From the NCBI RefSeq assembly GCF_030384885.1, contig NZ_CP128615.1: a DNA stretch of 64,000 bases. One strand, written 5' to 3'. Below, one piece after another: positions 14,941-48,553 of this stretch. A program made the position numbers and the translations under genes. The stretch is from Escherichia coli. GTDB taxonomy: Bacteria > Pseudomonadota > Gammaproteobacteria > Enterobacterales > Enterobacteriaceae. The notes beneath the pieces were generated by a model, which did no database searches, was not told the DNA's origin, and saw only the letters and a list, made by a program, of their open reading frames with translations. Positions within the stretch are counted from its first letter, which is position 1, and every line of letters begins with the position of its first letter.

Positions 14941-14946
14941 ACAGGA

Positions 14947-17258: not shown

Positions 17259-17262
17259 AAAT

Positions 17263-22241: not shown

Positions 22242-22257
22242 CTGTATATACATACAG
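22242..22257. promoter_or_regulatory. LexA (SOS) box upstream of impC
   Basis: CTGTATATACATACAG matches CTGT-N8-ACAG; TTGACT -35-like hexamer at 22211. Confidence 0.65.
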
Positions 22258-22280
22258 CAATAGAAAAGGGAGATGAGAAC

Positions 22281-24233: not shown

Positions 24234-24237
24234 TATA

Positions 24238-25606: not shown

Positions 25607-25609
25607 CTA

Positions 25610-25830
25610 TAGCCCCTTAAATACTCAATCTGAGTAAATCACTGTTTCTGGTTGCAAGGTAATACTCAATTTGAGCACTATCATAGTTATGAAATCACAA
25701 AACACAAGTAATATTTATTACATCATATGACATACTTCATATTTCATACTTCATAAATATGAATGCATGTTGACACATCAGGTTACAGTGTCAAAATATC
25801 ATCATACTTCACACATCACATTTATGAGGT
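25610..25830. promoter_or_regulatory. Divergent intergenic region with direct repeats; candidate centromere/promoter for both partition operons
   Basis: Repeated CATACTTCAT / TACTCAATTTGAG motifs between divergently transcribed partition genes. Confidence 0.4.
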
Positions 25831-25834
25831 TGCA

Positions 25835-26479: not shown

Positions 26480-26748
26480 AGAAACCCAGCCAGCAAGCAT
26501 TAAACAGAGCTGCAGTTACGGTAGAACAAGCAGAGGCTCTGGCTCAGCGCCTTGCGGATAAACCATACGGCGCGCCGGAAAAACTCGAACCAGAAAAACA
26601 ATGTCGGACGACAATCTCTCTTGGTGAAAGCATGCTTGTCACAATAGAAGATCTGGCATTGAGGAATAAACGCAATGGTAAAGATCCAAAAAATGTAAGT
26701 GCCATCGTCAGAGTAGCCCTTGAGCAATACTTAAAAACACTAACGTAA
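26473..26748 (+). CDS. Small ParG-like DNA-binding partner of ParA (likely RHH)
   Basis: 91-aa ORF overlapping the parA stop; C-terminal AIVRVALEQYLK. Confidence 0.5.
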   Translation: MVKKPSQQALNRAAVTVEQAEALAQRLADKPYGAPEKLEPEKQCRTTISLGESMLVTIEDLALRNKRNGKDPKNVSAIVRVALEQYLKTLT

Positions 26749-26885
26749 TAATCAAGAAGTTATTACTTATGAAATCACACTTGTGAATTCACACTGTTTA
26801 AGCACCCTTGCATACAAGAGATCACATATTGCAGTGGTCTCTTCTTTTATAGAATAAATCACAATTCATAATTATGATTTGTGAC

Positions 26886-27677
26886 TTATGCGTGTCTGTT
26901 TTTCAGCATTGTGACAGCATCGGACTCAGGCATCGAAAACTGCACCCGGTGCCGTGCAGCCACATCCAGCGCAAACACCTTCGTGTACACCTCTGTCGAA
27001 CTAATCGACTTGTGCCCCATCAGGCTCTGCAGCACCTTCAGCGGAATACCAGCATACAGCATATGCATCGCGTAGGAATGGCGGAAAGTATGTGGGGTAA
27101 CCGGAACAGAGAACGTCACGCCGTCGGCCGCAGCGGCCTCTACAGCTTCATTCAGCCAGGTGCGAACTGTGCGGTCGGTGATTCCCCAGATGCGCGCCTT
27201 CTCCATTCTTCCGGTTCGTTTGTTTCTGCGCTCCAGTGGGATTTTCAGCGTGGCCACCATCATCTGCAGTTGGCTGACGTATTGTGTATCGGACAGGGGA
27301 ACCAGGCGATGCACCTGACTGCCAGCAGGGACACGGCCTGCCGTTCTGGTCGCTTTTTCAGTCCGTTGTTTGAGCGTGGCCAGCTGTACGAACGGATATG
27401 GCGGCGCCAGAGAAAAATCTCCCCGCGTCAGCGCCAGCGCTTCGTTTATACGTGCGCCCGTGTTCCACAGGGTGGCCAGCAACATTTTGCGGTGCAGATC
27501 CGGTACATAGTGGAGCAGGGCGCTGATCTCCGGCGCCAACAGATATTTTGGTAATTCGTCCTGCACAAGTGCCATCTGACGTAGTGCCAGCGCAGCCGGG
27601 TAATCAATGGCAACAGGTAATGTTGCCGGAGGCGTTAAAAAAGAACCTGGCAGGGAAAGCAATTGTGGGCCACTCAT
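26886..27677 (-). CDS. Tyrosine site-specific recombinase (candidate multimer resolvase)
   Basis: 263-aa ORF with HTFRHSYAMH...LMGH...Y catalytic region; paralog of int at 1263-2003. Confidence 0.8.
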   Translation of the reverse strand: MSGPQLLSLPGSFLTPPATLPVAIDYPAALALRQMALVQDELPKYLLAPEISALLHYVPDLHRKMLLATLWNTGARINEALALTRGDFSLAPPYPFVQLATLKQRTEKATRTAGRVPAGSQVHRLVPLSDTQYVSQLQMMVATLKIPLERRNKRTGRMEKARIWGITDRTVRTWLNEAVEAAAADGVTFSVPVTPHTFRHSYAMHMLYAGIPLKVLQSLMGHKSISSTEVYTKVFALDVAARHRVQFSMPESDAVTMLKNRHA

Positions 27678-28105
27678 GATGTCCCCTTTATGAAATCCTC
27701 AATCTCTTGCTCGGTCTTTTTAGACTTCTTTACCATTTCGTACTCCTTTTGGAGTGTTTTACCTCTGGCTTTCAACAATACCAACCTCGTTGGCGATAGT
27801 GTATCGGAAAGGCCGTGCAGAGGGAGGCCACATAACATTCTCAGTTCTCGTGATAACCGCAGTGCTTTTACTCCCAACATAGCTGCGTTTTTATGCAAAC
27901 TATATTCACCCGCTCCACCATAAGGAGTATCTTCAACAAACACATTATCTACACACACGACAGCTTCGTAGCTGAGAACAGAGAGTTCGCTGAGCCTATA
28001 CATCAGGCCAGAAGGAAGGGAGCGCCAGTTACCAGATACCGGGGAATAATCGATTTCCGGTAATAAGAACTCAGCTTCTCCTCTGCCATCCTGATCGTGC
28101 TCCAC
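27674..28105 (-). pseudogene. Gene of unknown function, N-terminus truncated by IS26
   Basis: ORF reads across the IS26 left inverted repeat at 28106; 4-bp overlap with the recombinase start. Confidence 0.5.
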
Positions 28106-28927
28106 AGGGCACTGTTGCAAATAGTCGGTGGTGATAAACTTATCATCCCCTTTTACTGATGGAGCTGCACATGAACCCATTCAAAGGCCGGTATTTTCAG
28201 CGTGACATCATTCTGTGGGCCGTACGCTGGTACTGCAAATACGGCATCAGTTACCGTGAGCTGCAGGAGATGCTGGCTGAACGCGGAGTGAATGTCGATC
28301 ACTCCACGATTTACCGCTGGGTTCAGCGTTATGCGCCTGAAATGGAAAAACGGCTGCGCTGGTACTGGCGTAACCCTTCCGATCTTTGCCCGTGGCACAT
28401 GGATGAAACCTACGTGAAGGTCAATGGCCGCTGGGCGTATCTGTACCGGGCCGTCGACAGCCGGGGCCGCACTGTCGATTTTTATCTCTCCTCCCGTCGT
28501 AACAGCAAAGCTGCATACCGGTTTCTGGGTAAAATCCTCAACAACGTGAAGAAGTGGCAGATCCCGCGATTCATCAACACGGATAAAGCGCCCGCCTATG
28601 GTCGCGCGCTTGCTCTGCTCAAACGCGAAGGCCGGTGCCCGTCTGACGTTGAACACCGACAGATTAAGTACCGGAACAACGTGATTGAATGCGATCATGG
28701 CAAACTGAAACGGATAATCGACGCCACGCTGGGATTTAAATCCATGAAGACGGCTTACGCCACCATCAAAGGTATTGAGGTGATGCGTGCACTACGCAAA
28801 GGCCAGGCCTCAGCATTTTATTATGGTGATCCCCTGGGCGAAATGCGCCTGGTAAGCAGAGTTTTTGAAATGTAAGGCCTTTGAATAAGACAAAAGGCTG
28901 CCTCATCGCTAACTTTGCAACAGTGCC
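28106..28927 (+). mobile_element. IS26, no flanking target-site duplication
   Basis: Terminal repeats GGCACTGTTGCAAA (28106) and TTTGCAACAGTGCC (ends about 28927); flanks CTCCACAG versus CCACCCAT. Confidence 0.95.
28171..28875 (+). CDS. tnpA: IS26 transposase Tnp26
   Basis: MNPFKGRYFQRDIILWAVRWYCKYGISYRELQEM... recognised. Confidence 0.95.
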   Translation: MNPFKGRYFQRDIILWAVRWYCKYGISYRELQEMLAERGVNVDHSTIYRWVQRYAPEMEKRLRWYWRNPSDLCPWHMDETYVKVNGRWAYLYRAVDSRGRTVDFYLSSRRNSKAAYRFLGKILNNVKKWQIPRFINTDKAPAYGRALALLKREGRCPSDVEHRQIKYRNNVIECDHGKLKRIIDATLGFKSMKTAYATIKGIEVMRALRKGQASAFYYGDPLGEMRLVSRVFEM

Positions 28928-29454
28928 CCACCCATCTGTTTGTGTCGGTACTCTGAGGGGGCATGGGGCAAAAACCTGAAAAAGGTATTCGCCTGGCTGC
29001 CCCGCTCCGGGCGAAAATGAAGGTACAGCGACGGGATGAATAGCACTTTTTGCTAAAGGAATATCAACAATAGCATGCTATAGTTACTTTAATGGGTAGC
29101 TGCGCCATTGACAATGGTGTGGTTTTCTGTTAACATTACTTTCATAGTATTGTTCCGTCCCGCTCCACTCCAACAAATCCGTTTATTTCCCGCCAGACCG
29201 GTTATCACCATTCCGGCCCGGATTTTTTTGGATTTTTTTCCGGGGAGCACCCGGGACGAGCTTAAAATCGGTATGACAGACAGGAGGATGCGAATGAACA
29301 CATCATAGCAGAATTGAAAGAGAAAACATTCTGTACGGTATCAACAGCGTTCACGTGTGTGAGGCGCCGGGTGCCTTTTATCTGAAAAAAGAGGTCAAGA
29401 AGATGATCAAGATTAACACATCAGTGTTAACAACAACCTGCCCAGGAGGGCTTT

Positions 29455-29799
29455 ATGAAAAATTTGTTCGACACCGAGGGAACGGTTCTATTCCCATTCC
29501 AGACTGAAATCCATTTTATCTGGACGATTTACACCACAGCTAAAACCCTTTACGTCAGTGCCTGTGGGCACATCGGACAGAAGCAATACTGGAGCGCCTG
29601 TCTCTGTATTTTGCTTCTTATGGCCTACGTGGGTCTCTGTGCTGCGGTGGTCTGGGCTGTAGTGCCCTGGCTTAAGGCCTTTATTGTGTCGAAATTTGCG
29701 GTTTCAGCACTCTGGGTCACGCCAGTAAAGAGTTTGTTGCTCAGGGGTATCGGTAAGATGGTGGGGGCCATCTGCCGAAAGTTTACTCTATTAAAGTAA
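29455..29799 (+). CDS. Hypothetical membrane protein
   Basis: 114-aa ORF with AGGAGGG RBS and two hydrophobic helices. Confidence 0.4.
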   Translation: MKNLFDTEGTVLFPFQTEIHFIWTIYTTAKTLYVSACGHIGQKQYWSACLCILLLMAYVGLCAAVVWAVVPWLKAFIVSKFAVSALWVTPVKSLLLRGIGKMVGAICRKFTLLK

Positions 29800-29972
29800 G
29801 AGCAGCAAGCTACACCAACGGATGGTGAATGTCAACAGGCATTCACCATCTCCTTACGGCGGTGGTCCCTGTGGCCACTGCCGCTTTCGCGCGGGTGTAA
29901 CACGGCAAAACTCCTCTGTACAACAGGGGCTCCCGCCGTCATTTTCCGGCACAGGTGAGGCCGGAATTGGAA

Positions 29973-30974
29973 CTAAAACGTAAACCGCGGGCCTGTCCGG
30001 TAGCGTTCACTATCGGCCAGCATTCTCTCAACCAGAGAGAAATCCTTTTCACCGCAGAACACGTACTGCTCCGCGAACTCCACCTGCAGGGCGTTGTAAT
30101 GCGTGACATGATCCGGGGTAAGCGGCATGAAAAGATAGTCCGTATACCTCCGGATATGTTCCAGTCTTTCAAAAGGCCGAATGTGACGGGGGATAAGATG
30201 CGGCGCTCTGGCAAGCAGATTGTGAAGATGCTGCTTTTGACGAATCATCTGTTCACGGATGGAGGGGCAATACATGGCCAGCATCAGCGTCGATGACAGG
30301 GGGAGGTAAATCTGTATCCCGCGAACGGCCAGACCAAGATTACCGTACGGACCGAAGTCATTGCTGTTCTTAAGCACGACGGGATTGTCTGATACGTAAA
30401 ACGGACTTTCTGGCCTGGTTTCCAGAAGGTACCAGTCCTTTTTCAGCAGGTGATCAATATGTGACATCTGCTGGACGAGCTGCCGCAGAAAAATATCCTT
30501 GGTATCGCCCCCGGACGACAGGCCCAGGGTTTCCAGGGCCTGCTCTTTAGTCGAGCCGATTGCCTCCATCTTATCGGTGAGCACCGAAATCATGCCTGAG
30601 ATACGCTCCAGTTCGCCGAAGGTTCGTGCGCGCTGCACGGCAACAAACACGGCCAGCCTGTAGCGTTCGTCATCTGTCAGCCTGCGAATATCCCTGTGCG
30701 CCAGCAGGGCTGCAATTACCGGTGCCGCGTGGTGCTCGTAAATCCCCAGCAGTGGTTCAAGACTCAGACGGTCCGGGTGATTTTCGAGGTTGTAGAACGT
30801 GTTGCGGACGGTTGCATCATCCGGCGTGGTGGCATAGGCGCGCCCTGCAGCCTTGTCAAAGGCGTATAAACGCTGACGCTTACCCTTTCCCGGCGTACTG
30901 AAATGCTTCAGTAAAAAACGGGGAACCGTATGCTGTCTGACCACATCGGTCTGCAGATTGACTGAATCGGCCAT
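29973..30974 (-). CDS. DUF4238-like protein (candidate defence-island gene)
   Basis: Start taken at the ATG at 30974 with GGAGA RBS; N-terminal HTVPRFLLKHF resembles the H-x-V/I-P-x-F-Y/L-L-K/R-x-F signature I associate with DUF4238. Confidence 0.45.
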   Translation of the reverse strand: MADSVNLQTDVVRQHTVPRFLLKHFSTPGKGKRQRLYAFDKAAGRAYATTPDDATVRNTFYNLENHPDRLSLEPLLGIYEHHAAPVIAALLAHRDIRRLTDDERYRLAVFVAVQRARTFGELERISGMISVLTDKMEAIGSTKEQALETLGLSSGGDTKDIFLRQLVQQMSHIDHLLKKDWYLLETRPESPFYVSDNPVVLKNSNDFGPYGNLGLAVRGIQIYLPLSSTLMLAMYCPSIREQMIRQKQHLHNLLARAPHLIPRHIRPFERLEHIRRYTDYLFMPLTPDHVTHYNALQVEFAEQYVFCGEKDFSLVERMLADSERYRTGPRFTF

Positions 30975-31179
30975 AACTTTATCTCCCTGAAAAGCCACGC
31001 AGGCGCACCGGTGCATCTGTATTGACGGCATGGGCAGCTGGTTTGCGGCATAACATTAGAAAACAGAACCGTTCGATAATACCTGTGTTTAACACCCTGT
31101 CAGTACTGATGAAATTTAAATCTCCGATTATAGCTTTTTTCGGATCTCAGCAGAAAAAAGACAGAAGTGTGTATAGGTT

Positions 31180-31270
31180 TGGCATATGCGTACCCCTGCC
31201 ATCTGCATATGCTATATCTATACATATGCCGATCATCTGCATATACTGAGCATATGTATAAAGGCCGGTC
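31180..31270. promoter_or_regulatory. vapBC-1 promoter/operator repeats
   Basis: Repeated CATCTGCATAT / GCATATG motifs upstream of vapB. Confidence 0.45.
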
Positions 31271-31285
31271 GGCCAGGAGGAAATA

Positions 31286-31516
31286 ATGAGAACCGTATCC
31301 ATTTTTAAAAACGGCAATAACCGCGCCATCCGTCTGCCCCGCGATCTTGATTTTGAGGGGGTGAGCGAGCTGGAGATCGTCCGGGAAGGGGACAGCATCA
31401 TCCTACGCCCCGTCCGGCCGACCTGGGGCTCGTTCGCGAAGCTCGAAAAAGCTGACCCGGACTTTATGGCGGAGCGCGAGGACGTTGTCACCGACGAAGG
31501 ACGGGTTAACCTGTGA
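31286..31516 (+). CDS. vapB: VapB antitoxin (AbrB/SpoVT fold), copy 1
   Basis: 76-aa ORF MRTVSIFKNGNNRAIRLPRDLDFEG...; 4-bp overlap with vapC. Confidence 0.85.
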   Translation: MRTVSIFKNGNNRAIRLPRDLDFEGVSELEIVREGDSIILRPVRPTWGSFAKLEKADPDFMAEREDVVTDEGRVNL

Positions 31517-31929
31517 ACAAAACGTATATGCTGGACACCAACATCTGCTCTTTCATCATGCGCGAGCAGCCGGAAGCCGTCCTGAAGCGCCTGGAGCAGG
31601 CGGTGCTGCGTGGCCACCGTATCGTGGTCTCGGCCATCACTTATTCCGAAATGCGCTTCGGGGCTACCGGCCCGAAGGCCTCGCCGCGCCACGTGCAGCT
31701 GGTTGACGCGTTCTGCACCCGCCTCGATGCCATCCTGCCCTGGGATCGCGCCGCGGTGGACGCGACCACGGAGATTAAGGTGGCGCTGCGCCTCGCCGGG
31801 ACGCCGATCGGCCCGAACGACACGGCGATTGCCGGACACTCCATCGCCGCCGGTGCCGTGCTGGTGACGAATAATACGCGGGAATTTGAACGGGTACCGG
31901 GTCTTGTGCTGGAAGACTGGATAAGATAA
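31513..31929 (+). CDS. vapC: VapC PIN-domain toxin, copy 1
   Basis: 138-aa ORF with PIN acidic residues (MLDTNICSF, ...TNNTREFERV). Confidence 0.85.
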   Translation: MNKTYMLDTNICSFIMREQPEAVLKRLEQAVLRGHRIVVSAITYSEMRFGATGPKASPRHVQLVDAFCTRLDAILPWDRAAVDATTEIKVALRLAGTPIGPNDTAIAGHSIAAGAVLVTNNTREFERVPGLVLEDWIR

Positions 31930-32002
31930 CGCTGTAAAACAAAACAGGCGGTCTGGCGCTGCCGGACACTCTTTCAGTCAGCGGTATATAAAGGAATAAA
32001 AG

Positions 32003-33565
32003 ATGCCTCTGATCACGCGGCTTATGCTGCAAAACTTTAAAAAGTTTCCGGAACTGGACCTGCGCTTCACTCATGACCGTAACATTCTGGTCGGGGATAA
32101 TGAGTCCGGGAAAAGCACGATTCTGCTGGCCCTTGACCTTGTGCTGAGCGACAGCCGGCACCGGGTCGAGGCATTGGGTGTGGAATCGCTCCTGTCCCAG
32201 TCAGCAGTCAGGCAGTTTCAGGAAGGTGAGCGCCGCGCCGATCGGTTACCCGTGCTGACAGCTGATGTTTTCCTGAGTAATGGGGGAGATCCTGACCTGA
32301 ACGGCAGGCAAAATCTGGCGGGTATCGATGCGGATGGTCTCAGAATGCGCATTGCACCCATGACGGAGGAATACGGTCAGGATATACATCATGTCCTGCA
32401 GCAGGATCCCGATAATTTTCCCTATGAATACTATTCCGTGCGGTTCAGCACCTTCTCCGGGGGGCATTTTGCCGGCTTCAGACGCTATCTGCGCCATCTG
32501 CTGTTAGACAGTGCACGCATCGATAACGAGCACGCCGCACAGGAATATACGCGCACAGTTTACAGCGTCAATGTGCCGGTAGCCGATCGGTACCGGCTTG
32601 AAAACAGTTACCGGCAACAGAAAATGCACTTCTGCACCCGGCATCTGTCAGCCATAAACGACACGCTGGATACGTATCAGTTTGGCGTGCGTTCCGGTGC
32701 TAAATCAGGTCTTGAGGCGAATCTGGACATTACCGAGGACGGTATTTCCATTCGTCACCGTGGAAAAGGAAGGCAGTGCTTCATCAAAACAGAGTTTGCA
32801 CTGCAGCGGCATCAGCAGCAGGGAGAGCTCCACGCACTGTTGCTTGAGGAGCCGGAGAATCATCTCAGCCATGTCAGTATGAAGAGGCTGGTTAATCAGC
32901 TTGCAACTGAACGGCAGACGCAGGTGTTTATTGCCACACACAGCAGCCATATCTCATCCCGCCTCGATCTGCGTAAGGCAATCCTCCTCGGGTCTGCCCG
33001 ACCGGTACTGATGAATGAACTTTCCGCTGAGACTGCCGCCTTCTTCATGAAAGCACCGGACAATAATGTGCTGGAATTTGCGCTGGCCAGACGTGTGCTG
33101 CTCGTGGAGGGGGATGCTGAGTTTATTCTGATCGAGGCCTTTTATCGCCGCCTGTATGGCAGGTCGCCGGAGGATGACGGGGTTCACATCATCGCTATCG
33201 GCGGAACGAGTTTCCGTCGTTATCTTGAACTGGCCCGTCTTCTGGAAAATCGCGTCGCGGCCCTTCGTGATAATGACGGCAACTATCAGCAAAACTGCGA
33301 TGAACGCTATGCTGACGTGCTTTGTTCCCGCTCCCGGGTATTTGCTGATCGCGATAACACCCGATCCACATTTGAAATCTGCCTGTATCAGGATAACGCT
33401 GGTCTGTGTGATGCGCTTTTCCGCGGAACACGCCGGACACTCACGGTGCAGGAATACATGCTGGCCAATAAGGCAGAAGCAGCATTCCGGCTGTTACAGC
33501 TGCACGCCGAAGAGCTGACAGTACCTGATTATATTCAGGAGGCACTGGCATGGATAAGAGAGTGA
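32003..33565 (+). CDS. OLD-family ATPase/TOPRIM nuclease (GajA-like)
   Basis: Walker A GDNESGKST, Walker B-like LLLEEPENH, H-loop IATHSSH, TOPRIM-like LLVEGDAEF and ALRDNDG. Confidence 0.65.
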   Translation: MPLITRLMLQNFKKFPELDLRFTHDRNILVGDNESGKSTILLALDLVLSDSRHRVEALGVESLLSQSAVRQFQEGERRADRLPVLTADVFLSNGGDPDLNGRQNLAGIDADGLRMRIAPMTEEYGQDIHHVLQQDPDNFPYEYYSVRFSTFSGGHFAGFRRYLRHLLLDSARIDNEHAAQEYTRTVYSVNVPVADRYRLENSYRQQKMHFCTRHLSAINDTLDTYQFGVRSGAKSGLEANLDITEDGISIRHRGKGRQCFIKTEFALQRHQQQGELHALLLEEPENHLSHVSMKRLVNQLATERQTQVFIATHSSHISSRLDLRKAILLGSARPVLMNELSAETAAFFMKAPDNNVLEFALARRVLLVEGDAEFILIEAFYRRLYGRSPEDDGVHIIAIGGTSFRRYLELARLLENRVAALRDNDGNYQQNCDERYADVLCSRSRVFADRDNTRSTFEICLYQDNAGLCDALFRGTRRTLTVQEYMLANKAEAAFRLLQLHAEELTVPDYIQEALAWIRE

Positions 33566-34572
33566 TATTTGCGGTTGCCGGCTCGGGCAAGACCACGCTG
33601 CTGATACAGCGGTTGAGTGAGGACCGGCGGACGCTGATCCTGACCTTCACCGTGAATAATGAAGCGCATCTCCGGGCGCAGATTATCAGACGTTTTGGCT
33701 TTATCCCGGACGGGATCAGGGTGATGACCTGGTTTGAGTTTCTGCACGGTTTTTGCTTCAGGCCTTTCCTGCAGGAGCAGCTGGCATCGCGTGGGCTGAG
33801 CTTCGACCAGCCCCCACCCAGAATACCGCGCACGAATGCCCGGCATTATCAGGATCCCGCCGGACGGCTGTATCACCGGAGGCTCGCACACTTACTCACA
33901 GCCCGGGGGCTGCTGCCAGATATCCGTACCCGGCTTGCCCGTTACTACGATGAACTGCTTGTCGATGAAGTCCAGGACTTTGCCGGACATGACTTTAATT
34001 TTCTGCTGGAGCTCTGCCGCGCGGAAATCACTGTGCTCTGTTGCGGCGATTTTTATCAACATACCTTTGATACAAGCCATGACGGCAACGTTAATTCAAC
34101 GCTGCACGATGACATTACGCGATATGAGGCCCGCTTCGACGCAGCAGGTTTCACGGTTGACCGGGACACGCTCAACCGGACATGGCGTTGCTCAGCTTCA
34201 GTGTGCGAGTTTATCACCGGACAACTGAACATCCGTATCGCTGCCCATGGGATACATGCCACCCTGATTGAAACGATCACAGATGCAGAGCGCACAGCCA
34301 CCCTGCACGCCGATAATACGGTGATTAAGCTCTTCTATCGTGAACATCACCGTTACGGCTGCTATTCCATGAACTGGGGCGTCAGTAAAGGGCTCGACCA
34401 CTTTCAGGATGTCTGCATTGTGATGGGATCTTCCCACTGGAAGCTTCTGACCCGTCAGGAACTGGCAGCCCTTCCACCGTCGTCCCGTAACAGGCTGTAC
34501 GTGGCATGCTCACGGGCGCGCGGCAACATTTATTTTGTTCCCGAAATTCATCTGCGCCGATTCCGGAACTGA
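33550..34572 (+). CDS. Compact SF1/UvrD-like helicase (GajB-like)
   Basis: Motifs AVAGSGKTT (I), LLVDEVQD (II), GDFYQ (III), YVACSRAR (VI); 16-bp overlap with the upstream nuclease gene. Confidence 0.6.
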   Translation: MDKRVIFAVAGSGKTTLLIQRLSEDRRTLILTFTVNNEAHLRAQIIRRFGFIPDGIRVMTWFEFLHGFCFRPFLQEQLASRGLSFDQPPPRIPRTNARHYQDPAGRLYHRRLAHLLTARGLLPDIRTRLARYYDELLVDEVQDFAGHDFNFLLELCRAEITVLCCGDFYQHTFDTSHDGNVNSTLHDDITRYEARFDAAGFTVDRDTLNRTWRCSASVCEFITGQLNIRIAAHGIHATLIETITDAERTATLHADNTVIKLFYREHHRYGCYSMNWGVSKGLDHFQDVCIVMGSSHWKLLTRQELAALPPSSRNRLYVACSRARGNIYFVPEIHLRRFRN

Positions 34573-34861
34573 GTCAGCTGCTTCTCAGTCGGGCACAATT
34601 CAGAAATAAAGCTGTATGGCCAACGATGTCACTTCAGGCTGGAAAAGTGCGGATCCGGTTTTGCCTTTTTTCGGATCTGAGCGGGAAAAGTGAGAAACCA
34701 ACATAGGTGTAACATATCCATATGCCGGGCATCTGCATAGGCAAAGCATACGCATATACCTACCATCTGCATATGTAACACCTATACAAGCCGGGCTTGC
34801 AGGCATATACTTCACCTATGCGGGAATACTCCCTGGCACACTCAGCATATGAGGAAAAACC

Positions 34862-35092
34862 ATGCGCACAGTTTCGATATTTAAAAACGGCAATAACCGC
34901 GCCATCCGTCTGCCCCGGGACCTGGATTTTGATGGCGTCAGCGAGCTGGAGATCGTCCGGGAAGGGGACAGCATCATTCTGCGTCCCGTCCGGCCGACCT
35001 GGGGCTCGTTCGCGCAGCTGGACAGGGCCGATCCGGACTTTATGGCGGAGCGTGAGGATGTGGTCAGCGATGAAGGACGCTTTGAGCCATGA
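34862..35092 (+). CDS. vapB: VapB antitoxin, copy 2 (diverged paralog)
   Basis: 76-aa ORF MRTVSIFKNGNNRAIRLPRDLDFDG...; own CATCTGCATAT operator repeats upstream (about 34700-34850). Confidence 0.85.
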   Translation: MRTVSIFKNGNNRAIRLPRDLDFDGVSELEIVREGDSIILRPVRPTWGSFAQLDRADPDFMAEREDVVSDEGRFEP

Positions 35093-35505
35093 AGAAAACC
35101 TGGATGCTCGACACCAACATCTGCTCGTTCATCATGCGCGAGCAGCCGGCAGCGGTGCTGAAGCGCCTGGAGCAGGCGGTGCTGCGCGGTGATCGCATTG
35201 TGGTCTCGGCCGTGACGTATGCCGAGATGCGCTTCGGCGCCACCGGCCCGAAGGCCTCGCCGCGCCATATTCAGCTGGTCGACGCGTTCTGCGCGCGCCT
35301 CGATGCCGTCCTGCCCTGGGACCGCGCCGCGGTGGACGCCACGACGGACATCCGGGTGGCGCTGCGCCTAGCCGGGACGCCGATCGGCCCGAATGACACG
35401 GCCATTGCCGGGCACGCCATCGCGGCGGGCGCCATCCTGGTGACGAACAATGTGAGAGAGTTTGCGCGGGTCCCGGGCCTGGTGCTGGAAGACTGGGTGA
35501 AATAA
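35089..35505 (+). CDS. vapC: VapC PIN-domain toxin, copy 2
   Basis: 138-aa ORF, clear paralog of copy 1. Confidence 0.85.
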   Translation: MKKTWMLDTNICSFIMREQPAAVLKRLEQAVLRGDRIVVSAVTYAEMRFGATGPKASPRHIQLVDAFCARLDAVLPWDRAAVDATTDIRVALRLAGTPIGPNDTAIAGHAIAAGAILVTNNVREFARVPGLVLEDWVK

Positions 35506-35546
35506 TCCCGTAATAATTTCCGTGACGGAGACGACAGACATGAATG

Positions 35547-35608
35547 GGCTTTGTTGAATAAATCGAACTTTTGCTGAGTTGAAGGATCAGATCACGCATC
35601 CTCCCGAC
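35547..35608 (+). mobile_element. 62-bp IS903-group left-end remnant
   Basis: GGCTTTGTTGAATAAATCGAACTTTTGCTGAGTTGAAGGATCAGATCACGCATCCTCCCGAC identical to the left end of the full copy at 55903. Confidence 0.75.
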
Positions 35609-35708
35609 TGGATTTGCCCCTATATTTCCAGACACCTGTTATCACTTAATGGAGTGACCCCGAGCCCGTAGACAAATCTGCCCTATAGTTTGAGCATAGG
35701 AGGAGTCT

Positions 35709-35993
35709 ATGGGCACATCACGTTTTACCCCTGAATTTAAGGAAGAGGCCGTCCGCCAGATCACCGAGCGGGGCTATTCTATTGCTGAAGTATCTGAACG
35801 GCTCGGCGTGTCGGCGCACAGCCTATATAAATGGCTCCGGGCTGTTAAGCCTGACAACAGTGGACAGCAGGCACAGGATTTACTGGATGCCAGAACAGAA
35901 ATTCTCAGGCTGAAAGCACAGCTTAAACGCACTGAGGAAGAGCGGGATATTCTGAAAAAGGCAGCGCGGTACTTTGCAAGGGAGCCCGACTGA
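35709..35993 (+). CDS. IS3-family OrfA
   Basis: 94-aa HTH protein MGTSRFTPEFKEEAVRQITERGYSIAEVSERLGVS... Confidence 0.7.
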   Translation: MGTSRFTPEFKEEAVRQITERGYSIAEVSERLGVSAHSLYKWLRAVKPDNSGQQAQDLLDARTEILRLKAQLKRTEEERDILKKAARYFAREPD

Positions 35994-36040
35994 AGTATCG
36001 CTTTATCAACGATCACCGTGAAATCTGGTCGATCGTTACA

Positions 36041-36566
36041 ATGTGTCGGGTCCTTAAGGTTGCCCGTGCCGGATTTTATGTCTGGCTCCATAACCCTGTA
36101 TCTGCCGGAGAAAAGGATAACCAGCGACTGCTGGAACTCATCCGCGACTCCTATACGCTGAGTGGTGGAGTTTACGGTTATCGCAGGGTTCATGGCGATC
36201 TTCGCGAAATTGGCGAAGTGTGCAGCAGAAACCGGGTTGCCAAAATCATGAGGAAAAACAGGATTCAGGCTATACATGGTTATAAAGTGCCACGCGGGAG
36301 CCGGGGACGACCGTCACTGATAGCGCCTAATCACGTGCGGCGTGAATTTACTGTAGTGAAGCCCAATCAGGTGTGGGTCACCGACATCACCTACATCCGC
36401 ACCTGGCAGGGCTGGCTGTACCTGGCAGTGGTTATCGATCTTTTTGCCCGTAATGTGGTGGGCTGGTCGATGAAGCCGACACTGTCGCGCGAGCTGGCAC
36501 TGGATGCGCTGCTGATGGCGGTCTGGCGACGTAAACCTGAAGAAAACGTCATTGTGCACAGCGATA
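36041..36566 (+). pseudogene. IS3-family OrfB, N-terminal part (interrupted after ...NVIVHSD)
   Basis: DDE core present up to HSD, then unrelated sequence. Confidence 0.6.
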
Positions 36567-37960
36567 GTAATAATGCCGATGTCAGTCTTTACCACCACTT
36601 AGTTTGCCGTTTAACCAGATTGGTGTGATTACTGATGCAGTGAAGACCTTCCCGCATCCTGACTCACACAGCGATCGACCTTTTGTGTCCTGCCCTGGAC
36701 CCGTCGGTTGCCGGAAGCGCCTTCATGCGAGGCATCTCCTCACCGATGCGCGTGACTCAAGAAGGGCCTGACGGCTTGTCTCGTTACTGTCCTGTCCGGG
36801 TTATCTGTCTGGAGATTCAACTCTGTTTCCTCACAGGAGCTCTGTCATGGTTGATAAAGTTACCGAAGCTGCCGTTGTGGGTGGCGTGGATACACATAAA
36901 GATTTGCACGTTGCCGCTGTCGTAGATCAGAACAATAAAGTCCTTGGGACTCAGTATTTCTCCACAACACGACAAGGTTACCGGCAGATGCTGGCATGGA
37001 TGACCTCGTTTGGGACATTAAAGCGAATTGGTGTTGAGTGCACAGGTACCTATGGTTCCGGTTTGCTTCGTTATTTTCAGAACGCCGGGTTAGAAGTTCT
37101 TGAGGTGACTGCTCCAGACCGGATGGAGCGACGCAAACGGGGTAAAAGTGACACAATTGATGCTGAATGTGCCGCTCATGCAGCATTCTCAGGCATCAGG
37201 ACAGTTACTCCCAAAACGCGTGATGGCATGATTGAGTCCCTGCGGGTATTAAAAACTTGCCGAAAAACAGCAATATCAGCCCGCAGAGTCGCTCTCCAGA
37301 TTATCCATTCAAATATTATCTCTGCCCCGGATGAATTACGTGAACAGCTCAGAAATATGACGCGCATGCAGCTCATCAGGACCCTGGGTTCCTGGAGACC
37401 TGATGCCAGTGAATACCGCAATGTAACCAACGTTTATCGCATTTCATTAAAGTCCCTTGCCCGACGCTATCTCGAGTTACATGACGAAATCGCTGATCTG
37501 GATGTCATGATTGCGGCAATTGTCGACGAGTTGGCACCTGAGCTGATTAAACGTAATGCTATCGGATACGAAAGCGCTTCACAGTTGCTGATCACTGCCG
37601 GAGACAATCCTCAACGGTTAAGATCAGAATCAGGATTTGCGGCACTGTGTGGTGTCAGCCCGGTCCCCGTTTCTTCTGGAAAAACGAACCGTTACCGACT
37701 TAATCGTGGTGGAGATCGTGCTGCAAATAGTGCACTTCACATCATCGCCATCGGACGCTTACGAACTGACGCAAAAACAAAGGAATATGTCGCCAGGCGT
37801 GTAGCCGAAGGACATACAAAAATGGAAGCGATACGCTGTCTAAAGCGATATATCTCCCGCGAAGTTTACACGTTACTGCGCAATCAAAACAGGCGGATCA
37901 ACAGTATCCCGATAACAGCTTGACTCTTAGAAGGGCGTCCAGGGCAGTCAGTATGGCAGT
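36567..37960 (+). mobile_element. IS110-family insertion sequence (boundaries approximate)
   Basis: Insert splitting the IS3-family orfB; carries an IS110-type transposase; no terminal inverted repeats, as expected for the family. Confidence 0.55.
36847..37923 (+). CDS. IS110-family transposase
   Basis: 358-aa ORF with N-terminal VGGVDTHKDLHVAAV motif. Confidence 0.8.
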   Translation: MVDKVTEAAVVGGVDTHKDLHVAAVVDQNNKVLGTQYFSTTRQGYRQMLAWMTSFGTLKRIGVECTGTYGSGLLRYFQNAGLEVLEVTAPDRMERRKRGKSDTIDAECAAHAAFSGIRTVTPKTRDGMIESLRVLKTCRKTAISARRVALQIIHSNIISAPDELREQLRNMTRMQLIRTLGSWRPDASEYRNVTNVYRISLKSLARRYLELHDEIADLDVMIAAIVDELAPELIKRNAIGYESASQLLITAGDNPQRLRSESGFAALCGVSPVPVSSGKTNRYRLNRGGDRAANSALHIIAIGRLRTDAKTKEYVARRVAEGHTKMEAIRCLKRYISREVYTLLRNQNRRINSIPITA

Positions 37961-37984
37961 GATGACTGGCAGCGGTTCTGCCGG

Positions 37985-38218
37985 GCCAATAATCTGGTAC
38001 CGAGCATGAGCCGTCGCGGCAACTGCTGGGATAATGCAGTGGCAGAATCGTTCTTCAGTTCACTCAAAAAAGAGCGCATCAGGAAGCGGATATACAAAAC
38101 CCGGGACATGGCCCGGGCGGATATTTTCGATTATATTGAAGTGTTCTACAACCGGGCCCGGCGCCACAGTCATCTCGGCGGCGTCAGCCCGGAGGCCTTC
38201 GAAAAGGCCTCGCAGTGA
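37985..38218 (+). pseudogene. IS3-family OrfB, C-terminal part
   Basis: ...NLVPSMSRRGNCWDNAVAESFF...RRHSHLGGVSPEAFE, the typical OrfB C-terminus. Confidence 0.6.
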
Positions 38219-38325
38219 GGACAGAAACTGTCTACCGGAGCGTGGTCACTCCACATTTAAAGAAACGAGCTTTGGTAAACATACCTGTAATGACTCCATA
38301 AAATGGCGCGTCAAACGACACCTAA

Positions 38326-40401
38326 TCAATTAACCCCAAGCGCCTTAAACACGGCATCGACGGGGTCTGCATAAAAGCTGATCTGGAATTTTGAGAACAA
38401 CTCAGCAGGAACCGTTGGAATATCTGAGGCTGAGGCCATTGGGAGCAAAATACGCTTTGCGCCACTGTCCATAGCTAACTGAAGACTGCCTGCAAGATCT
38501 TGAACAGGATTGACGACACCACCTAAAGTCATCTCACCCAAAACAACCATCTGCTCTTGAATCGGTCGGTTCATCAGAATTGAACAGAACGCAATTAATG
38601 CAGCGAGCGATGACTTTGTACTTGGCCCCGTATTGTGGAGCTCAACAACATGGAGGTGATACTCATGATCAGAAAACTTCGCCGACGCACTGATTCTATT
38701 CAGGTTACCTTTGAAATAATCAAAGCCAACACGCACAGCTTCTTTCGCTGCGGTATTCGAACCAAGGCCAGACACTGAGTGTTTACCAGAACCAGCCATC
38801 ATCTGGGTTTCATAGCGATATAACCCAAGCTGCCCAGTGCTTCCCTGAGTAACCAAGTGCACGACACCAGCGCGAGGTAAGCCCTCAGGAATTAGCTTGC
38901 TGCCACCTTGTTCCGGTACATTGATGAAGAATTCTTCTAATGAATCGTTATCGATGTAGCTAAAGTGCACATCAAAAAATTCCATTCCGCCAAGCTTTTT
39001 CAATTGCTCTTTGACTCTACGTCTAGTTTCCAGCGCATAGGTCAGGCAGGCTCTTACATCATCTTTTGTGTACTGTGCGTCGGGGTGTAGTAGCTTTAAC
39101 AAGCCCGAAACAGTTCTGCGTACAGCAATTACATCACGCTGATTAAGGTTATTACCGAGTTTGAAGAACTTATCGATAGCATCCGCAAAACTTCTTTTGC
39201 GCATTTCACGCATGTATTCAGCAAGATAGTCTGTGATTAATCCGTAACTATTGGTGAAAAACTCAGGACGCATCTTCGGTATTTCCCATCCAGGAATATA
39301 GGAATGGAAACGGTCAAAAAAAGCAGTGTCAATCATGGCTTCAGGAAAAGGTGCCAACAGATGACTGGTCTTCACCAGTGTCTCAACGCTTTGATTGATG
39401 TTACCGACGAATACCATGGAAGCCTTCGCTTCGATTGAATCACGACCACGGGCAAAAGACCCTGACGCCATATAATCTTTCATTATTTGGACGCCGTCTT
39501 TGTCTTTAAAGTTAATACCCGCTACTTCATCAAAGGCGACAACATCCCACATTCCGACCAACCCAACTTGGCGCGAGCTCATGTTATAGAACAAGTTCGC
39601 CACAGTTGTTTGTCCGCCCGAGACAAGCAATGAGTTTGGTGAGCACTCCTTGTAGACATGGCTTTTACCTGTCCCTCTTGGTCCGAGCTCACAAACGTTG
39701 TAGTTGTTTTCAACGAATGGGATCATACGAGTGATAAGATGCCATTTCACCCGATGCTCTAAGTTGGTTGGCTCCATACCCACGGAACGAAGCAACACAT
39801 CCATCCACTGATCGGTACTAAAATGTCTTCTGGTTGAAAACACCTCATCCATGTTCATGGACGGCATTTGTATCGGTTTTAAACTCATAATGGAGAAAGG
39901 TGATGTCTTCTGACCTTCCTCAAAGAAATACTGGACGGTAATAATGCACCAGATGCCGCCAGTTAATAATTTTTCGTTGTCTTGTACTATTTTGGTCGGT
40001 ACAAGGGCATCCTTGATACCCAGGTTCGACAACGCAGCTTCATAGACGTCTTTTTTCTGGTTGAGCTTAACGCTTACTTTGTCGATGATTTTAAACGTGC
40101 CGCGTTCACGGATCAGTGACTTCACTTTCTCCGCTTCATCTGGTCGGACATAGTTCTCAGCCAAGATTTTTTTTACATTATCAAGGCCTTGCATTACAAC
40201 TTCGTCGTCATCGGACGCACAATACATGCCTAGTAAATACTCAAGCACATAGACAGGGACGTTAGCGCCTTCTTTCAATTGCTTTGTCAGATCTTTTCGA
40301 ACGACACGGCCTTTAAAATATTGGTTGAGCAATGCGTCTAAATCGGCGCTTTGCATCTGATTTTTTTCGTCTTTATGATCTTGTGAAAAATCAGTTGTCA
40401 T
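38326..40401 (-). CDS. brxL: BrxL (BREX Lon-like protease/ATPase)
   Basis: 691-aa ORF, last gene of the BREX operon; P-loop GPRGTGKSH and C-terminal Lon-protease-like domain. Confidence 0.85.
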   Translation of the reverse strand: MTTDFSQDHKDEKNQMQSADLDALLNQYFKGRVVRKDLTKQLKEGANVPVYVLEYLLGMYCASDDDEVVMQGLDNVKKILAENYVRPDEAEKVKSLIRERGTFKIIDKVSVKLNQKKDVYEAALSNLGIKDALVPTKIVQDNEKLLTGGIWCIITVQYFFEEGQKTSPFSIMSLKPIQMPSMNMDEVFSTRRHFSTDQWMDVLLRSVGMEPTNLEHRVKWHLITRMIPFVENNYNVCELGPRGTGKSHVYKECSPNSLLVSGGQTTVANLFYNMSSRQVGLVGMWDVVAFDEVAGINFKDKDGVQIMKDYMASGSFARGRDSIEAKASMVFVGNINQSVETLVKTSHLLAPFPEAMIDTAFFDRFHSYIPGWEIPKMRPEFFTNSYGLITDYLAEYMREMRKRSFADAIDKFFKLGNNLNQRDVIAVRRTVSGLLKLLHPDAQYTKDDVRACLTYALETRRRVKEQLKKLGGMEFFDVHFSYIDNDSLEEFFINVPEQGGSKLIPEGLPRAGVVHLVTQGSTGQLGLYRYETQMMAGSGKHSVSGLGSNTAAKEAVRVGFDYFKGNLNRISASAKFSDHEYHLHVVELHNTGPSTKSSLAALIAFCSILMNRPIQEQMVVLGEMTLGGVVNPVQDLAGSLQLAMDSGAKRILLPMASASDIPTVPAELFSKFQISFYADPVDAVFKALGVN

Positions 40402-40417
40402 GTTTCACCTCAGCGCC

Positions 40418-46758: not shown

Positions 46759-46773
46759 ATGATCTTGCGCCTC

Positions 46774-48537: not shown

Positions 48538-48553
48538 AGTTATCCGTTGCCTC

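What the first reader, a model, noticed from the sequence alone, without database searches (positions are those of the whole stretch)
31130..35505. Gabija-like OLD-nuclease plus miniature UvrD-like helicase, nested between two diverged vapBC operons
Seen: 32003-33565 encodes a 520-aa protein with Walker A (GDNESGKST), Walker B-like LLLEEPENH and a C-terminal TOPRIM-like acidic core (LLVEGDAEF, ALRDNDG). 33550-34572 overlaps it by 16 bp and encodes a 340-aa SF1 helicase core (AVAGSGKTT, LLVDEVQD, GDFYQ, YVACSRAR). Established: an OLD-family ATPase-TOPRIM nuclease paired with a UvrD-like helicase is the class 2 OLD / Gabija (GajA-GajB) architecture. Inference: the helicase looks much shorter than a canonical UvrD or GajB as I recall them, so this may be a compact variant or a distinct two-gene system. 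The pair is bracketed by two vapBC operons in direct orientation that are clearly paralogous but diverged (roughly 85% nucleotide identity by eye, not computed), each with its own CATCTGCATAT-type operator repeats, suggesting toxin-antitoxin-assisted retention or cassette-like delivery of the defence module.
Basis: partly seen in the sequence, partly recalled or inferred. Interest (0 to 1): 0.8.

Follow-up and report, generated by a model that had tools for sequence, protein, structure and literature searches.

The report
Compact Gabija defence pair on plasmid
This is a small-sized version of the known Gabija nuclease-helicase anti-phage system, linked to a VapBC toxin-antitoxin on a very common IncF-type plasmid backbone; it is already catalogued and widespread, so it is ordinary, although I found no experimental test of this compact subtype.

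Summary
The two vapBC operons are 85.6% identical in DNA.

The 520-aa protein matches PADLOC GajA models end to end (E 1.5e-101). The 340-aa protein matches a 369-position PADLOC GajB model end to end (E 1.7e-47). So this is Gabija (class 2 OLD), of a compact subtype that defence catalogues already hold.

The helicase is not truncated. Hundreds of homologues of 333-402 aa exist across Proteobacteria, always beside a ~520-aa OLD protein with the same 16-bp overlap. A confident AlphaFold model shows a UvrD/Rep-like core with all motifs but no 2B subdomain.

A 3.5-kb block, vapBC-gajAB (31170-34668), recurs in at least 1,571 PLSDB plasmids and 729 of 5,426 complete E. coli genomes. The downstream vapBC is a separate resident module, 100% identical to a plasmid that lacks Gabija. 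The bracketed arrangement occurs in only 67 plasmid records and looks like a mosaic junction, not a delivery cassette.

Published work already notes Gabija with VapBC on E. coli plasmids. The Gabija systems tested so far (B. cereus, ECOR49, PA14) are longer subtypes. Interest is low to moderate.

The parts
31170..31285 (+). Promoter/operator of vapBC(A), and left end of the conserved vapBC-gajAB block
   Evidence: CATCTGCATA at 31200 and 31234, 34 bp apart. Several GCATAT/ATATGC inverted repeats. Promoter-like TATACA-17-TATACT at 31219-31247. Similarity to Klebsiella plasmids L016/L017 begins at 31170.
31286..31516 (+). vapB(A), AbrB/SpoVT-type antitoxin (76 aa)
   Evidence: NCBIfam TA_anti_VapB scores 94.1 bits against a cut-off of 60. 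Annotated vapB in related plasmids.
31513..31929 (+). vapC(A), PIN-domain toxin (138 aa); 4-bp overlap with vapB
   Evidence: NCBIfam VapC models score 109-123 bits, below the equivalog cut-offs of 143 and 140. The four PIN acidic positions can be read in the sequence (LDTN, SEM, NDTA, TREF).
31930..32002 (+). 73-nt spacer between vapC(A) and gajA
   Evidence: The scan found no terminator-like and no promoter-like site here. The spacer is 98.6% and 90.5% conserved in two other allele lineages of the block. A weak hairpin has z -1.6.
32003..33565 (+). gajA, compact OLD-family ABC-ATPase + TOPRIM nuclease (520 aa)
   Evidence: PADLOC GajA PDLC00102, E 1.5e-101, residues 4-517 against model 3-531/532. 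Pfam OLD-like_TOPRIM 1e-16 and AAA_15. Best solved relative is B. cereus GajA, E 5e-10. Invariant residues: K37, E282/E283/E285, H313, E369, D371, D423, D425, E458, K490. Aligns end to end with the 754-aa UTI89 GajA.
33550..34572 (+). gajB, compact SF1A UvrD-like helicase/ATPase lacking the 2B subdomain (340 aa)
34573..34668 (+). 3' flank of gajB, right end of the conserved block
   Evidence: Similarity to Klebsiella plasmids L001, L016 and L017 ends at 34668, although what follows differs in each. No convincing terminator.
34662..34861 (+). Promoter/operator of vapBC(B), start of the separate resident module
   Evidence: 100% identity to pPK8568 (L003) starts at 34662. CATCTGCATA at 34730 and 34764. 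Promoter-like site 34783-34811. A 40-nt inverted repeat lies at 34703-34785.
34862..35092 (+). vapB(B), second antitoxin allele (76 aa)
   Evidence: NCBIfam TA_anti_VapB 92.5 bits against a cut-off of 60. 100% identical to the pPK8568 vapB and 85.7% nt identical to vapB(A).
35089..35505 (+). vapC(B), second PIN toxin allele (138 aa)
   Evidence: NCBIfam VapC models 110-120 bits. 100% identical to the pPK8568 vapC and 85.4% nt identical to vapC(A).

Best explanation
The locus 32003-34572 encodes a compact-subtype Gabija system (class 2 OLD). GajA (520 aa) is an ABC-type ATPase fused to an OLD-type TOPRIM nuclease. GajB (340 aa) is a UvrD/Rep-like SF1A motor reduced to the two RecA-like core domains (1A, 2A) plus a short 1B-like insert, with no 2B subdomain.

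By analogy with characterised Gabija (inference, not shown for this subtype), the two proteins form a complex. GajA's nuclease is held inactive by nucleotide binding, or by the absence of a suitable DNA substrate. It cuts invading phage or other mobile-element DNA once GajB and GajA sense DNA ends or nucleotide depletion.

The pair sits in the maintenance/leading region of an E. coli IncF plasmid. It is the downstream half of a co-inherited 3.5-kb block, vapBC(A)-gajAB (31170-34668). The VapBC(A) toxin-antitoxin most likely helps retain the block and plasmid, and its autoregulated promoter may read through into gajAB.

The second vapBC (from 34662) is an independent resident addiction module of another plasmid lineage. 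Mosaic recombination placed it next to the block, with IS26 on the left and a sharp junction near 34660-34668 on the right. A BREX type 1 locus follows, so the region is a plasmid-borne defence and addiction island.
For: Identity as Gabija:
- Full-length PADLOC hits: GajA E 1.5e-101 and GajB E 1.7e-47.
- Pfam OLD-like_TOPRIM 1e-16 plus AAA_15.
- The closest solved sequence for GajA is B. cereus GajA, 5e-10.
- Compact GajA aligns over residues 4-520 with the 754-aa UTI89 GajA. VEGDAE, DxD, TFE and NKAE line up.
- ATPase and TOPRIM catalytic residues are invariant in 7 homologues down to 53% identity.

Helicase:
- The model has pLDDT 89.9.
- SF1 motifs are invariant.
- Motif III to motif VI spans about 150 aa, against about 350 in Rep/UvrD1. 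There is no counterpart of the 103-aa Cacc/2B insert of B. cereus GajB (residues 314-416; PMC10681800).

A real family, not a truncation:
- 2,574 homologues, the full-length ones about 340-345 aa.
- 394 representative clusters (one per group at 50% identity) at E<=1e-30; the full-length ones among the best 150 are 333-402 aa.

A conserved operon: a 520-523-aa OLD gene plus a 340-345-aa helicase gene with the same 16-bp overlap is found in Pseudomonas, Acinetobacter, Achromobacter, Vreelandella, Dickeya and Serratia, plus a Rahnella-type homologue on a JGI metagenome contig. Neighbours include type I RM, Wadjet and Tn7-like elements.

Block and mosaic:
- Boundaries 31170 and 34668 are shared by Klebsiella plasmids with different flanks.
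- At least 1,571 plasmids carry the block, as do 729 of 5,426 complete E. coli genomes, almost always on plasmids.
- The block persists in three allele lineages.
- The vapBC(B) segment is 100% identical to pPK8568, which lacks Gabija.

Literature: Gabija, tmn and VapBC are reported together in the leading region of E. coli plasmids (10.1101/2022.08.21.504612).
Against: - I found no experiment on this compact subtype. The tested systems are different, longer subtypes. ECOR49 has GajA K35/H317/E379/D495/K528, GajB K27/T28 and D183/E184, and a primer encoding MRIETVYIKGL. PA14 has a DESQ box. B. cereus is 578/494 aa.
- Pfam UvrD matches to the helicase are weak (best 0.005). No solved structure matches it by sequence.
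- In B. cereus the GajA-GajB contacts use the 1B subdomain. Whether the shorter 1B-like region here does the same is unknown.
- The GajA model was poor (pLDDT 61), so the dimerisation insert could not be checked.
- Co-transcription with vapBC rests only on the absence of scan-level signals in the spacer.
Confidence: 0.85

Rival explanations
1. VapBC(A) and GajAB form one functionally integrated four-gene system. The VapB/VapC-autoregulated promoter sets Gabija expression, so antitoxin turnover under stress or infection raises defence. Alternatively, VapC is a back-up abortive effector, or VapBC makes cells addicted to the defence block.
For: The four genes form a 3.5-kb block with fixed boundaries in plasmids with different flanks. 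The block is present in at least 1,571 plasmids and 729 E. coli genomes, and persists in three allele lineages with a conserved 73-74-nt spacer. The scan found no terminator-like or promoter-like site in the spacer. Wu et al. note VapBC beside plasmid Gabija.
Against: Every more distant homologue of the pair examined, including plasmid-borne ones in Serratia and Rahnella, lacks vapBC. This holds for Pseudomonas, Acinetobacter, Achromobacter, Vreelandella, Dickeya, Yersinia, Serratia, Pantoea and Rahnella. So the pair is autonomous. vapBC occurs alone in thousands of plasmids. Linkage within an IncF maintenance region (ccdAB, RepE, SopAB nearby) could be simple hitch-hiking. Genes within the block show unequal divergence, which points to recombination inside it.
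Confidence: 0.25
2. On these plasmids the pair mainly serves conflict between mobile elements, or plasmid maintenance. It would restrict incoming competitor plasmids, or act during conjugative establishment, rather than defend against phage.
For: The location is among leading-region and maintenance genes: antirestriction, DNA methylase, umuDC, parM, ccdAB, RepE and SopAB. Places are almost all on plasmids in E. coli (2,138 against 34 on chromosomes). Wu et al. propose a role in fending off competing mobile elements. PA14 Gabija targets linear DNA ends not protected by RecBCD, and restricted a transduced cos plasmid in a recB mutant (PMC12407980).
Against: Chromosomal homologues sit in classical defence islands next to RM and Wadjet. 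Every Gabija tested so far restricts phages. The two roles are not exclusive.
Confidence: 0.2
3. One reading: the two diverged vapBC copies act as flanking arms that deliver, or can excise, the defence module as a cassette.
For: Two direct repeats of about 0.85 kb at 85.6% identity bracket gajAB. The arrangement recurs in 67 plasmid records.
Against: The bracketed form is about 4% of block-carrying plasmids (67 against at least 1,571). Copy B with its upstream region is 100% identical to a stand-alone copy in a plasmid without Gabija, and copy A is the allele normally linked to gajAB. No hybrid alleles were seen at the junctions. The left border of the mosaic is IS26, not vapBC. At 85.6% identity, RecA-dependent recombination should be inefficient (established knowledge, not tested here).
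Confidence: 0.07
4. The pair is a distinct, non-Gabija OLD-plus-helicase system that only resembles Gabija.
For: GajB lacks the 2B subdomain and is 154 aa shorter than B. cereus GajB. It has no sequence-level match to solved GajB. hhalign against a canonical 612-aa E. coli GajB aligns only the N-terminal half, at 72% probability.
Against: Full-length matches to PADLOC Gabija models for both proteins. Foldseek's best structural match is GajB. GajA aligns end to end with canonical GajA, with the catalytic residues in register. Gabija proteins span a wide range of sizes in PADLOC models: GajA 464-736 and GajB 365-647 positions.
Confidence: 0.05

Closest known systems
Gabija of Bacillus cereus VD045 (GajA 578 aa, GajB 494 aa; structures 8SM3, 8TK0/8TK1, 8JQB and others)
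   Same: Same two-gene order, and the same GajA build: ABC ATPase followed by OLD-type TOPRIM. Equivalents of K35, H320, E379, D511 and K541 are present (K37, H313, E369, E458, K490). GajB has an SF1A core with Walker A and a DExQD box. Both lack UvrD's Q-motif N-terminal extension, separation pin and GIG/gating elements.
   Different: GajB here has no Cacc/2B subdomain (103 aa in B. cereus), and its 1B-like insert is shorter (about 73 against 83 aa). GajA is 58 aa shorter, mostly within the TOPRIM domain after the DxD motif. Sequence identity is low: only residues 267-409 of GajA align significantly. Complex stoichiometry and activity are untested.
Canonical E. coli Gabija (UTI89 chromosome, 754 + 612 aa; the ECOR49 system tested by Wu et al.)
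   Same: Same host species and the same system call by PADLOC. GajA aligns over its whole length (hhalign 98%).
   Different: The canonical proteins are 234 and 272 aa longer, through many insertions. Residue numbering and the cloning primer show that the ECOR49 system tested for phage defence is not the compact type.
Class 2 OLD nucleases (Burkholderia pseudomallei and Xanthomonas campestris OLD; Schiltz et al. 2019, recalled from my own knowledge and from citations in PMC10781630)
   Same: An OLD ATPase-TOPRIM gene in tandem with a UvrD/PcrA/Rep-like helicase gene. TOPRIM Glu, DxD and Lys residues fit two-metal catalysis.
   Different: Smaller proteins. The helicase partner is reduced to a minimal core.
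Plasmid VapBC / VagCD type II toxin-antitoxin modules (e.g. MvpAT of Shigella pINV, Salmonella VapBC)
   Same: An AbrB/SpoVT antitoxin and a PIN toxin with overlapping genes. The promoter carries repeated palindromic operator half-sites. The location is an IncF maintenance region beside ccdAB.
   Different: VapC scores fall below NCBIfam's equivalog cut-offs for the tRNA(fMet)-specific enzymes (109-123 bits against 140-143), so the target is not established. Two diverged alleles sit on one plasmid, one of them fixed upstream of gajAB.

Membership tests
Gabija (GajA/GajB) | GajA has an N-terminal ABC-type ATPase with Walker A, Walker B and H-loop | tested here: met
   Pfam AAA_15, AAA_23 and SMC_N at residues 4-68 and 226-317. 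G31-x4-GKS(37-38), LLEEPE 280-285 and H313 are invariant in 7 homologues.
Gabija (GajA/GajB) | GajA has a C-terminal OLD-type TOPRIM nuclease with a catalytic Glu, DxD, a further acidic residue and a Lys | tested here: met
   Pfam OLD-like_TOPRIM 1e-16, residues 362-425. E369, D423, D425, E458 and K490 are invariant and in register with VEGPAE, DLD, TFE and NKAE of UTI89 GajA. B. cereus reference residues come from PMC8136825.
Gabija (GajA/GajB) | GajB is an SF1 UvrD-like helicase/ATPase with conserved motifs | tested here: met
Gabija (GajA/GajB) | gajA is immediately followed by a co-oriented gajB in one operon | tested here: met
   16-bp overlap in the window. The same overlap occurs in Pseudomonas, Acinetobacter, Achromobacter, Vreelandella, Dickeya and Serratia, and on a JGI metagenome contig carrying the Rahnella-type homologue.
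Gabija (GajA/GajB) | Both proteins match curated Gabija profile models over their full length | tested here: met
   PADLOC PDLC00102 GajA: E 1.5e-101, residues 4-517 against model 3-531/532. PDLC00148 GajB: E 1.7e-47, residues 1-330 against model 1-352/369. DefenseFinder could not be run.
Gabija (GajA/GajB) | Four-subdomain GajB (1A, 1B, 2A, 2B). This is a feature of the characterised B. cereus protein, not part of the operational definition of Gabija. | tested here: not met
   The model shows no insert in the C-terminal RecA-like domain (residues ~189-340). Motif III to motif VI spans about 150 aa, against about 350 in Rep/UvrD1. The B. cereus Cacc/2B is residues 314-416.
Gabija (GajA/GajB) | A 4:4 GajA-GajB supramolecular complex | not testable with these tools
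   No multimer prediction was available. The GajA monomer model was poor (pLDDT 61).
Gabija (GajA/GajB) | Protection against phage that needs both genes; a nuclease inhibited by nucleotides | not testable with these tools
   In the literature searched, only longer subtypes have been tested.
Class 2 OLD nucleases | An OLD ATPase-TOPRIM gene in tandem with a UvrD/PcrA/Rep-like helicase gene | tested here: met
VapBC type II toxin-antitoxin | An AbrB/SpoVT-type VapB antitoxin upstream of, and overlapping, a PIN-domain VapC toxin | tested here: met
   VapB scores 94.1 and 92.5 bits against a cut-off of 60. VapC matches three VapC models. Both copies have a 4-bp overlap.
VapBC type II toxin-antitoxin | tRNA(fMet)-specific endonuclease VapC (equivalog level) | tested here: inconclusive
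   Scores of 109-110 bits against cut-off 143 (PRK13725), and 120-123 against cut-off 140 (NF047863). Related, but below the curated thresholds.

The most novel reading that the evidence does not exclude
The 3.5-kb vapBC(A)-gajAB block works as a single toxin-antitoxin-gated minimal Gabija. gajAB would be transcribed from the VapB/VapC-autoregulated promoter, so antitoxin loss during stress, infection or plasmid entry switches on a stripped-down nuclease-motor complex. The 2B-less GajB would act as a DNA-end or nucleotide sensor rather than an unwinding helicase. This would be a distinct regulatory and structural solution carried by a large share of IncF resistance and virulence plasmids.
Probability: 0.12. 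Interest if true: 0.55.

Novelty: already known. Interest (0 to 1): 0.27.

Why it matters
The kind of system is known, so the value is practical rather than conceptual.

- **Prevalence.** This compact Gabija, with its linked VapBC, sits on at least 1,571 PLSDB plasmids of Klebsiella, E. coli, Salmonella and relatives. It is in about 13% of complete E. coli genomes, including IncFIA/FII backbones that carry aerobactin, sil/pco and resistance genes. It could therefore affect phage therapy host range and competition between plasmids.
- **An untested form.** The experimentally studied Gabija systems are all longer subtypes, so the most common plasmid form in Enterobacteriaceae appears untested.
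- **A minimal model.** At 520 + 340 aa it is a natural minimal Gabija. It could show whether the GajB 2B subdomain and the TOPRIM insertions are dispensable for complex formation, sensing and cleavage.
- **Mosaic plasmids.** The doubled vapBC illustrates how mosaic plasmid evolution stacks addiction modules and defence loci (Gabija next to BREX). It does not reveal a new delivery mechanism.

Tried and rejected
1. Sequence search of the helicase against solved structures gave no hit. A profile search reached only PcrA, UvrD1 and Rep weakly. I used it for motif spacing only.
2. An AlphaFold model of GajA from a 7-sequence alignment was poor (pLDDT 61, pTM 0.40). I did not use it for fold search or domain claims.
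3. I checked whether the compact type had already been tested. ECOR49 Gabija (mutant numbering and cloning primer) and PA14 Gabija (DESQ box against DEVQD) are different subtypes. Accession searches for the RefSeq proteins found no paper. Searches for a described short or 2B-less GajB found none.
4. The reference plasmid of Wu et al. (CP083423.1) is not in the local collections. Their Table S1 as stored is cut and did not show plasmid Gabija coordinates. So I could not prove that their plasmid Gabija is this compact type.
5. Operon structure stays unresolved. The promoter/terminator scan and RNA folds of the vapC-gajA spacer and the gajB 3' flank were not significant (z -1.6 and -0.2). The region upstream of gajA is not conserved with Dickeya, Pseudomonas or Vreelandella.
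6. I looked for tmn, the reported plasmid partner of Gabija, in the window. There was no PADLOC hit among the larger ORFs tested.
7. The DUF4238 gene and the 114-aa 'abortive infection' ORF were considered as parts of the system. I rejected this because they are absent from L016, L017 and L022, which still carry the block.
8. hhalign of compact GajB against the 612-aa UTI89 GajB aligned only the N-terminal half (72%). That is not enough to map the deletion residue by residue.

Full report
**Observation.** All quoted motifs are present at the stated places. The two vapBC coding regions are 85.6% identical in DNA, with VapB about 89.5% and VapC about 87% identical in protein. Synonymous codon differences outnumber non-synonymous ones, so both copies look functional. 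The 'CATCTGCATAT-type' repeats are real. CATCTGCATA occurs four times in 64 kb, only in the two vapB promoters, twice each and 34 bp apart, against 0.15 expected. The repeats overlap promoter-like TATACA-17-TATACT sites and GCATAT/ATATGC inverted repeats.

**What the two central genes are.** The 520-aa protein matches PADLOC GajA model PDLC00102 from end to end (E 1.5e-101; residues 4-517 on model positions 3-531 of 532). The 340-aa protein matches GajB model PDLC00148 from end to end (E 1.7e-47; 1-330 on 1-352 of 369). Pfam finds OLD-like_TOPRIM (1e-16) and AAA_15/SMC_N ATPase pieces in the first protein, and only weak UvrD signals in the second. The nearest solved sequence for the first protein is B. 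cereus GajA (5e-10). The second has no sequence-level match to a solved structure.

In an alignment of seven GajA homologues down to 53% identity, these residues are invariant: Walker A Lys (K37), the LLEEPE Walker B/D-loop, H-loop H313, TOPRIM E369, D423-x-D425, E458 and K490. They line up with VEGPAE, DLD, TFE and NKAE of the 754-aa chromosomal GajA of E. coli UTI89, which aligns with the compact protein over its whole length (hhalign 98%). The corresponding B. cereus residues (K35, H320, E379, D511, K541) are the ones shown by mutagenesis to matter (PMC8136825).

**The helicase is a genuine miniature, not a fragment.**
- A word-indexed search found 2,574 relatives. The full-length ones are about 340-345 aa, in Enterobacterales, Pseudomonas, Acinetobacter, Achromobacter, Cupriavidus and Vreelandella.
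- An exhaustive profile search of 1.84 billion representatives found 394 clusters at E<=1e-30. The full-length proteins among the best 150 are 333-402 aa.
- An AlphaFold model built on 42 homologues is confident (pLDDT 89.9, pTM 0.84).
- SF1 motifs I, Ia, II (DEVQD), III, IV, V and VI are invariant or nearly so.
- The distance from motif III to motif VI is about 150 aa, against about 350 in Rep and UvrD1. The C-terminal RecA-like domain of the model (about residues 189-340) has no inserted helical domain. In B. cereus GajB the corresponding insert (Cacc, equivalent to 2B) is residues 314-416 (PMC10681800).

I therefore infer 1A = 1-60 plus 134-188, a short 1B-like insert = 61-133, 2A = 189-340, and no 2B. 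In the B. cereus complex the GajA contacts are made by 1B, not 2B (PMC10781630). A 2B-less GajB could therefore still dock, but this is inference.

**Conservation of the pair.** In every distant homologue examined, a 520-523-aa OLD gene precedes the 340-345-aa helicase gene with the same 16-bp overlap:
- P. protegens, next to AAA_21/HNH genes.
- Acinetobacter, next to Wadjet.
- Achromobacter.
- Vreelandella and Dickeya, next to type I RM.
- A Yersinia Tn7-like element, with gajA disrupted.
- A Serratia plasmid, and a JGI metagenome contig carrying the Rahnella-type homologue; on the Rahnella plasmid itself gajA is cut short to 445 aa beside an IS.

None of these has vapBC. The pair is thus an autonomous two-gene defence-island module. 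That fits Gabija / class 2 OLD and argues against a separate kind of system.

**Context and the two vapBC operons.** The window is a mosaic E. coli IncF (FIB/FIC-type) plasmid region.
- Positions 21459-35185 are 99.4% identical to pRHB41-C14_2. There the neighbours are antirestriction, DNA methylase, dinI-umuDC, parM, IS26, a 114-aa 'abortive infection' ORF and a DUF4238 gene.
- A block from 31170 to 34668 (vapBC(A)-gajAB) is shared at about 95% with Klebsiella IncFIB/FII plasmids whose left and right flanks differ.
- A third allele lineage of the block, 89.6% identical, sits beside RepE/SopAB/ccdAB of IncFIA plasmids. Per-gene identities show that the linkage persists while the individual genes recombine.
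- The block or most of it is in at least 1,571 PLSDB records and in 729 of 5,426 complete E. coli genomes. Places are almost all on plasmids (2,138 against 34 on chromosomes).
- From 34662 onward, the window is 100% identical to pPK8568-156kb. That plasmid has vapBC(B) standing alone after an integrase and two small genes, has no Gabija, and continues into the same IS elements and BREX type 1 locus.
- The left limit of that similarity is an IS26 at about 28108-28927.
- The gajB-to-vapBC(B) junction is found in only 67 plasmid records.

The 'nesting' is therefore best read as a recombination junction between a vapBC(A)-gajAB block and another lineage's resident vapBC. It is not a cassette defined by its flanking repeats. 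No terminator-like or promoter-like site was detected between vapC(A) and gajA. Read-through from the autoregulated vapB promoter is therefore possible but unproven. RNA folds and comparison with other genera were uninformative.

**Comparison with what is known.** Wu et al. (bioRxiv 10.1101/2022.08.21.504612) report that PADLOC-called Gabija is often plasmid-borne in E. coli. [quoted passage not shown] The Gabija they cloned (ECOR49) has GajA residues up to K528, GajB K27/T28 and D183/E184, and an N-terminus MRIETVYIKGL, so it is a longer subtype. The PA14 system has a DESQ box, unlike the DEVQD of compact Pseudomonas homologues. The B. cereus proteins are 578 and 494 aa. I found no paper describing or testing the compact, 2B-less form. 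No tmn gene was detected among the window ORFs tested.

**Verdict.** The system is already captured by dedicated PADLOC models, is extremely common on enterobacterial plasmids, and its co-location with VapBC has been noted in the literature. The 'distinct system' and 'cassette delivery' ideas are not supported. Two points keep some interest: the most prevalent plasmid form of Gabija appears untested, and it is a natural minimal version lacking GajB 2B. I rate the kind as already known and interest at about 0.27. The most novel reading still open is a VapBC-gated minimal Gabija unit, with a probability of about 0.12.

Noticed in passing
window 38326-54366 (- strand): A complete BREX type 1 locus (brxL, pglZ, pglX, brxC, DUF1788, DUF1819, WYL/BrxR-like regulator). 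An extra DUF262 gene at 46774-48537, inserted between pglX and brxC, matches the PADLOC candidate system HEC-05 (E 6e-234). The same layout is annotated in pPK8568-156kb; DNA identity was measured only up to 40000 (100% over 34662-40000).
   Followed up: partly
window ~28108-28927: An IS26 copy forms the left breakpoint between pPK8568-like sequence (integrase, truncated small gene) and the segment carrying the 'abortive infection' ORF, DUF4238, vapBC and gajAB.
   Followed up: partly
window 35545-37923: A pile-up of IS debris lies between vapC(B) and BREX: a 62-64-bp IS5/IS903-end remnant (35545-35608), an IS3-family orfA (35709-35993) with a shortened orfB (36041-36628), and an IS110-family transposase (36847-37923).
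   Followed up: no
window 29455-31031: A 114-aa ORF (29455-29799, +) is annotated 'abortive infection protein' in related plasmids. A DUF4238 gene (29973-31031, -) is a frequent left neighbour of the vapBC-gajAB block. Neither hits PADLOC or NCBIfam, and both are absent from other block-carrying plasmids, so they may be an uncharacterised accessory or defence candidate.
   Followed up: partly
window 2001-9500 and 13001-17500: Two low-GC islands (30-40% GC against about 52% for the backbone). The first encodes a 1,651-aa autotransporter (2828-7783). The second encodes a 357-aa protein with a LuxR-type HTH and an EAL c-di-GMP phosphodiesterase domain (16185-17258).
   Followed up: no
window 58000-64000: A high-GC segment (61-66% GC) with a 936-aa ORF on the - strand (61077-63887). 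It is probably an imported transposon or resistance region. Not examined.
   Followed up: no
L010-L012 (Yersinia contigs), gajA at about 4447-6016: A Tn7-like element (TnsA/B/C/D genes adjacent) carries the compact pair as cargo, but gajA is split into 227-aa and 244-262-aa ORFs. It is probably a decaying copy.
   Followed up: no
Phage records OR846759.1 (6101-7180) and OR848108.1: Two Listeria phage records (LM 4-11-1 and LM 4-14-1) encode a full-length relative of the 340-aa helicase (28.5% identity over 98% of the query, E 2e-45). Compact GajB-like motors therefore also occur on Firmicutes phages or phage-like elements.
   Followed up: no
window 33550-34572, residues 168-188 of the helicase: The only low-confidence stretch of the helicase model (pLDDT 54-75) coincides with a run of invariant residues (Q170, H171, D174, T175, S176, D178, G179, N182, L185, H186). 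This is an extended, family-specific form of motif III that may be a DNA or partner contact.
   Followed up: no
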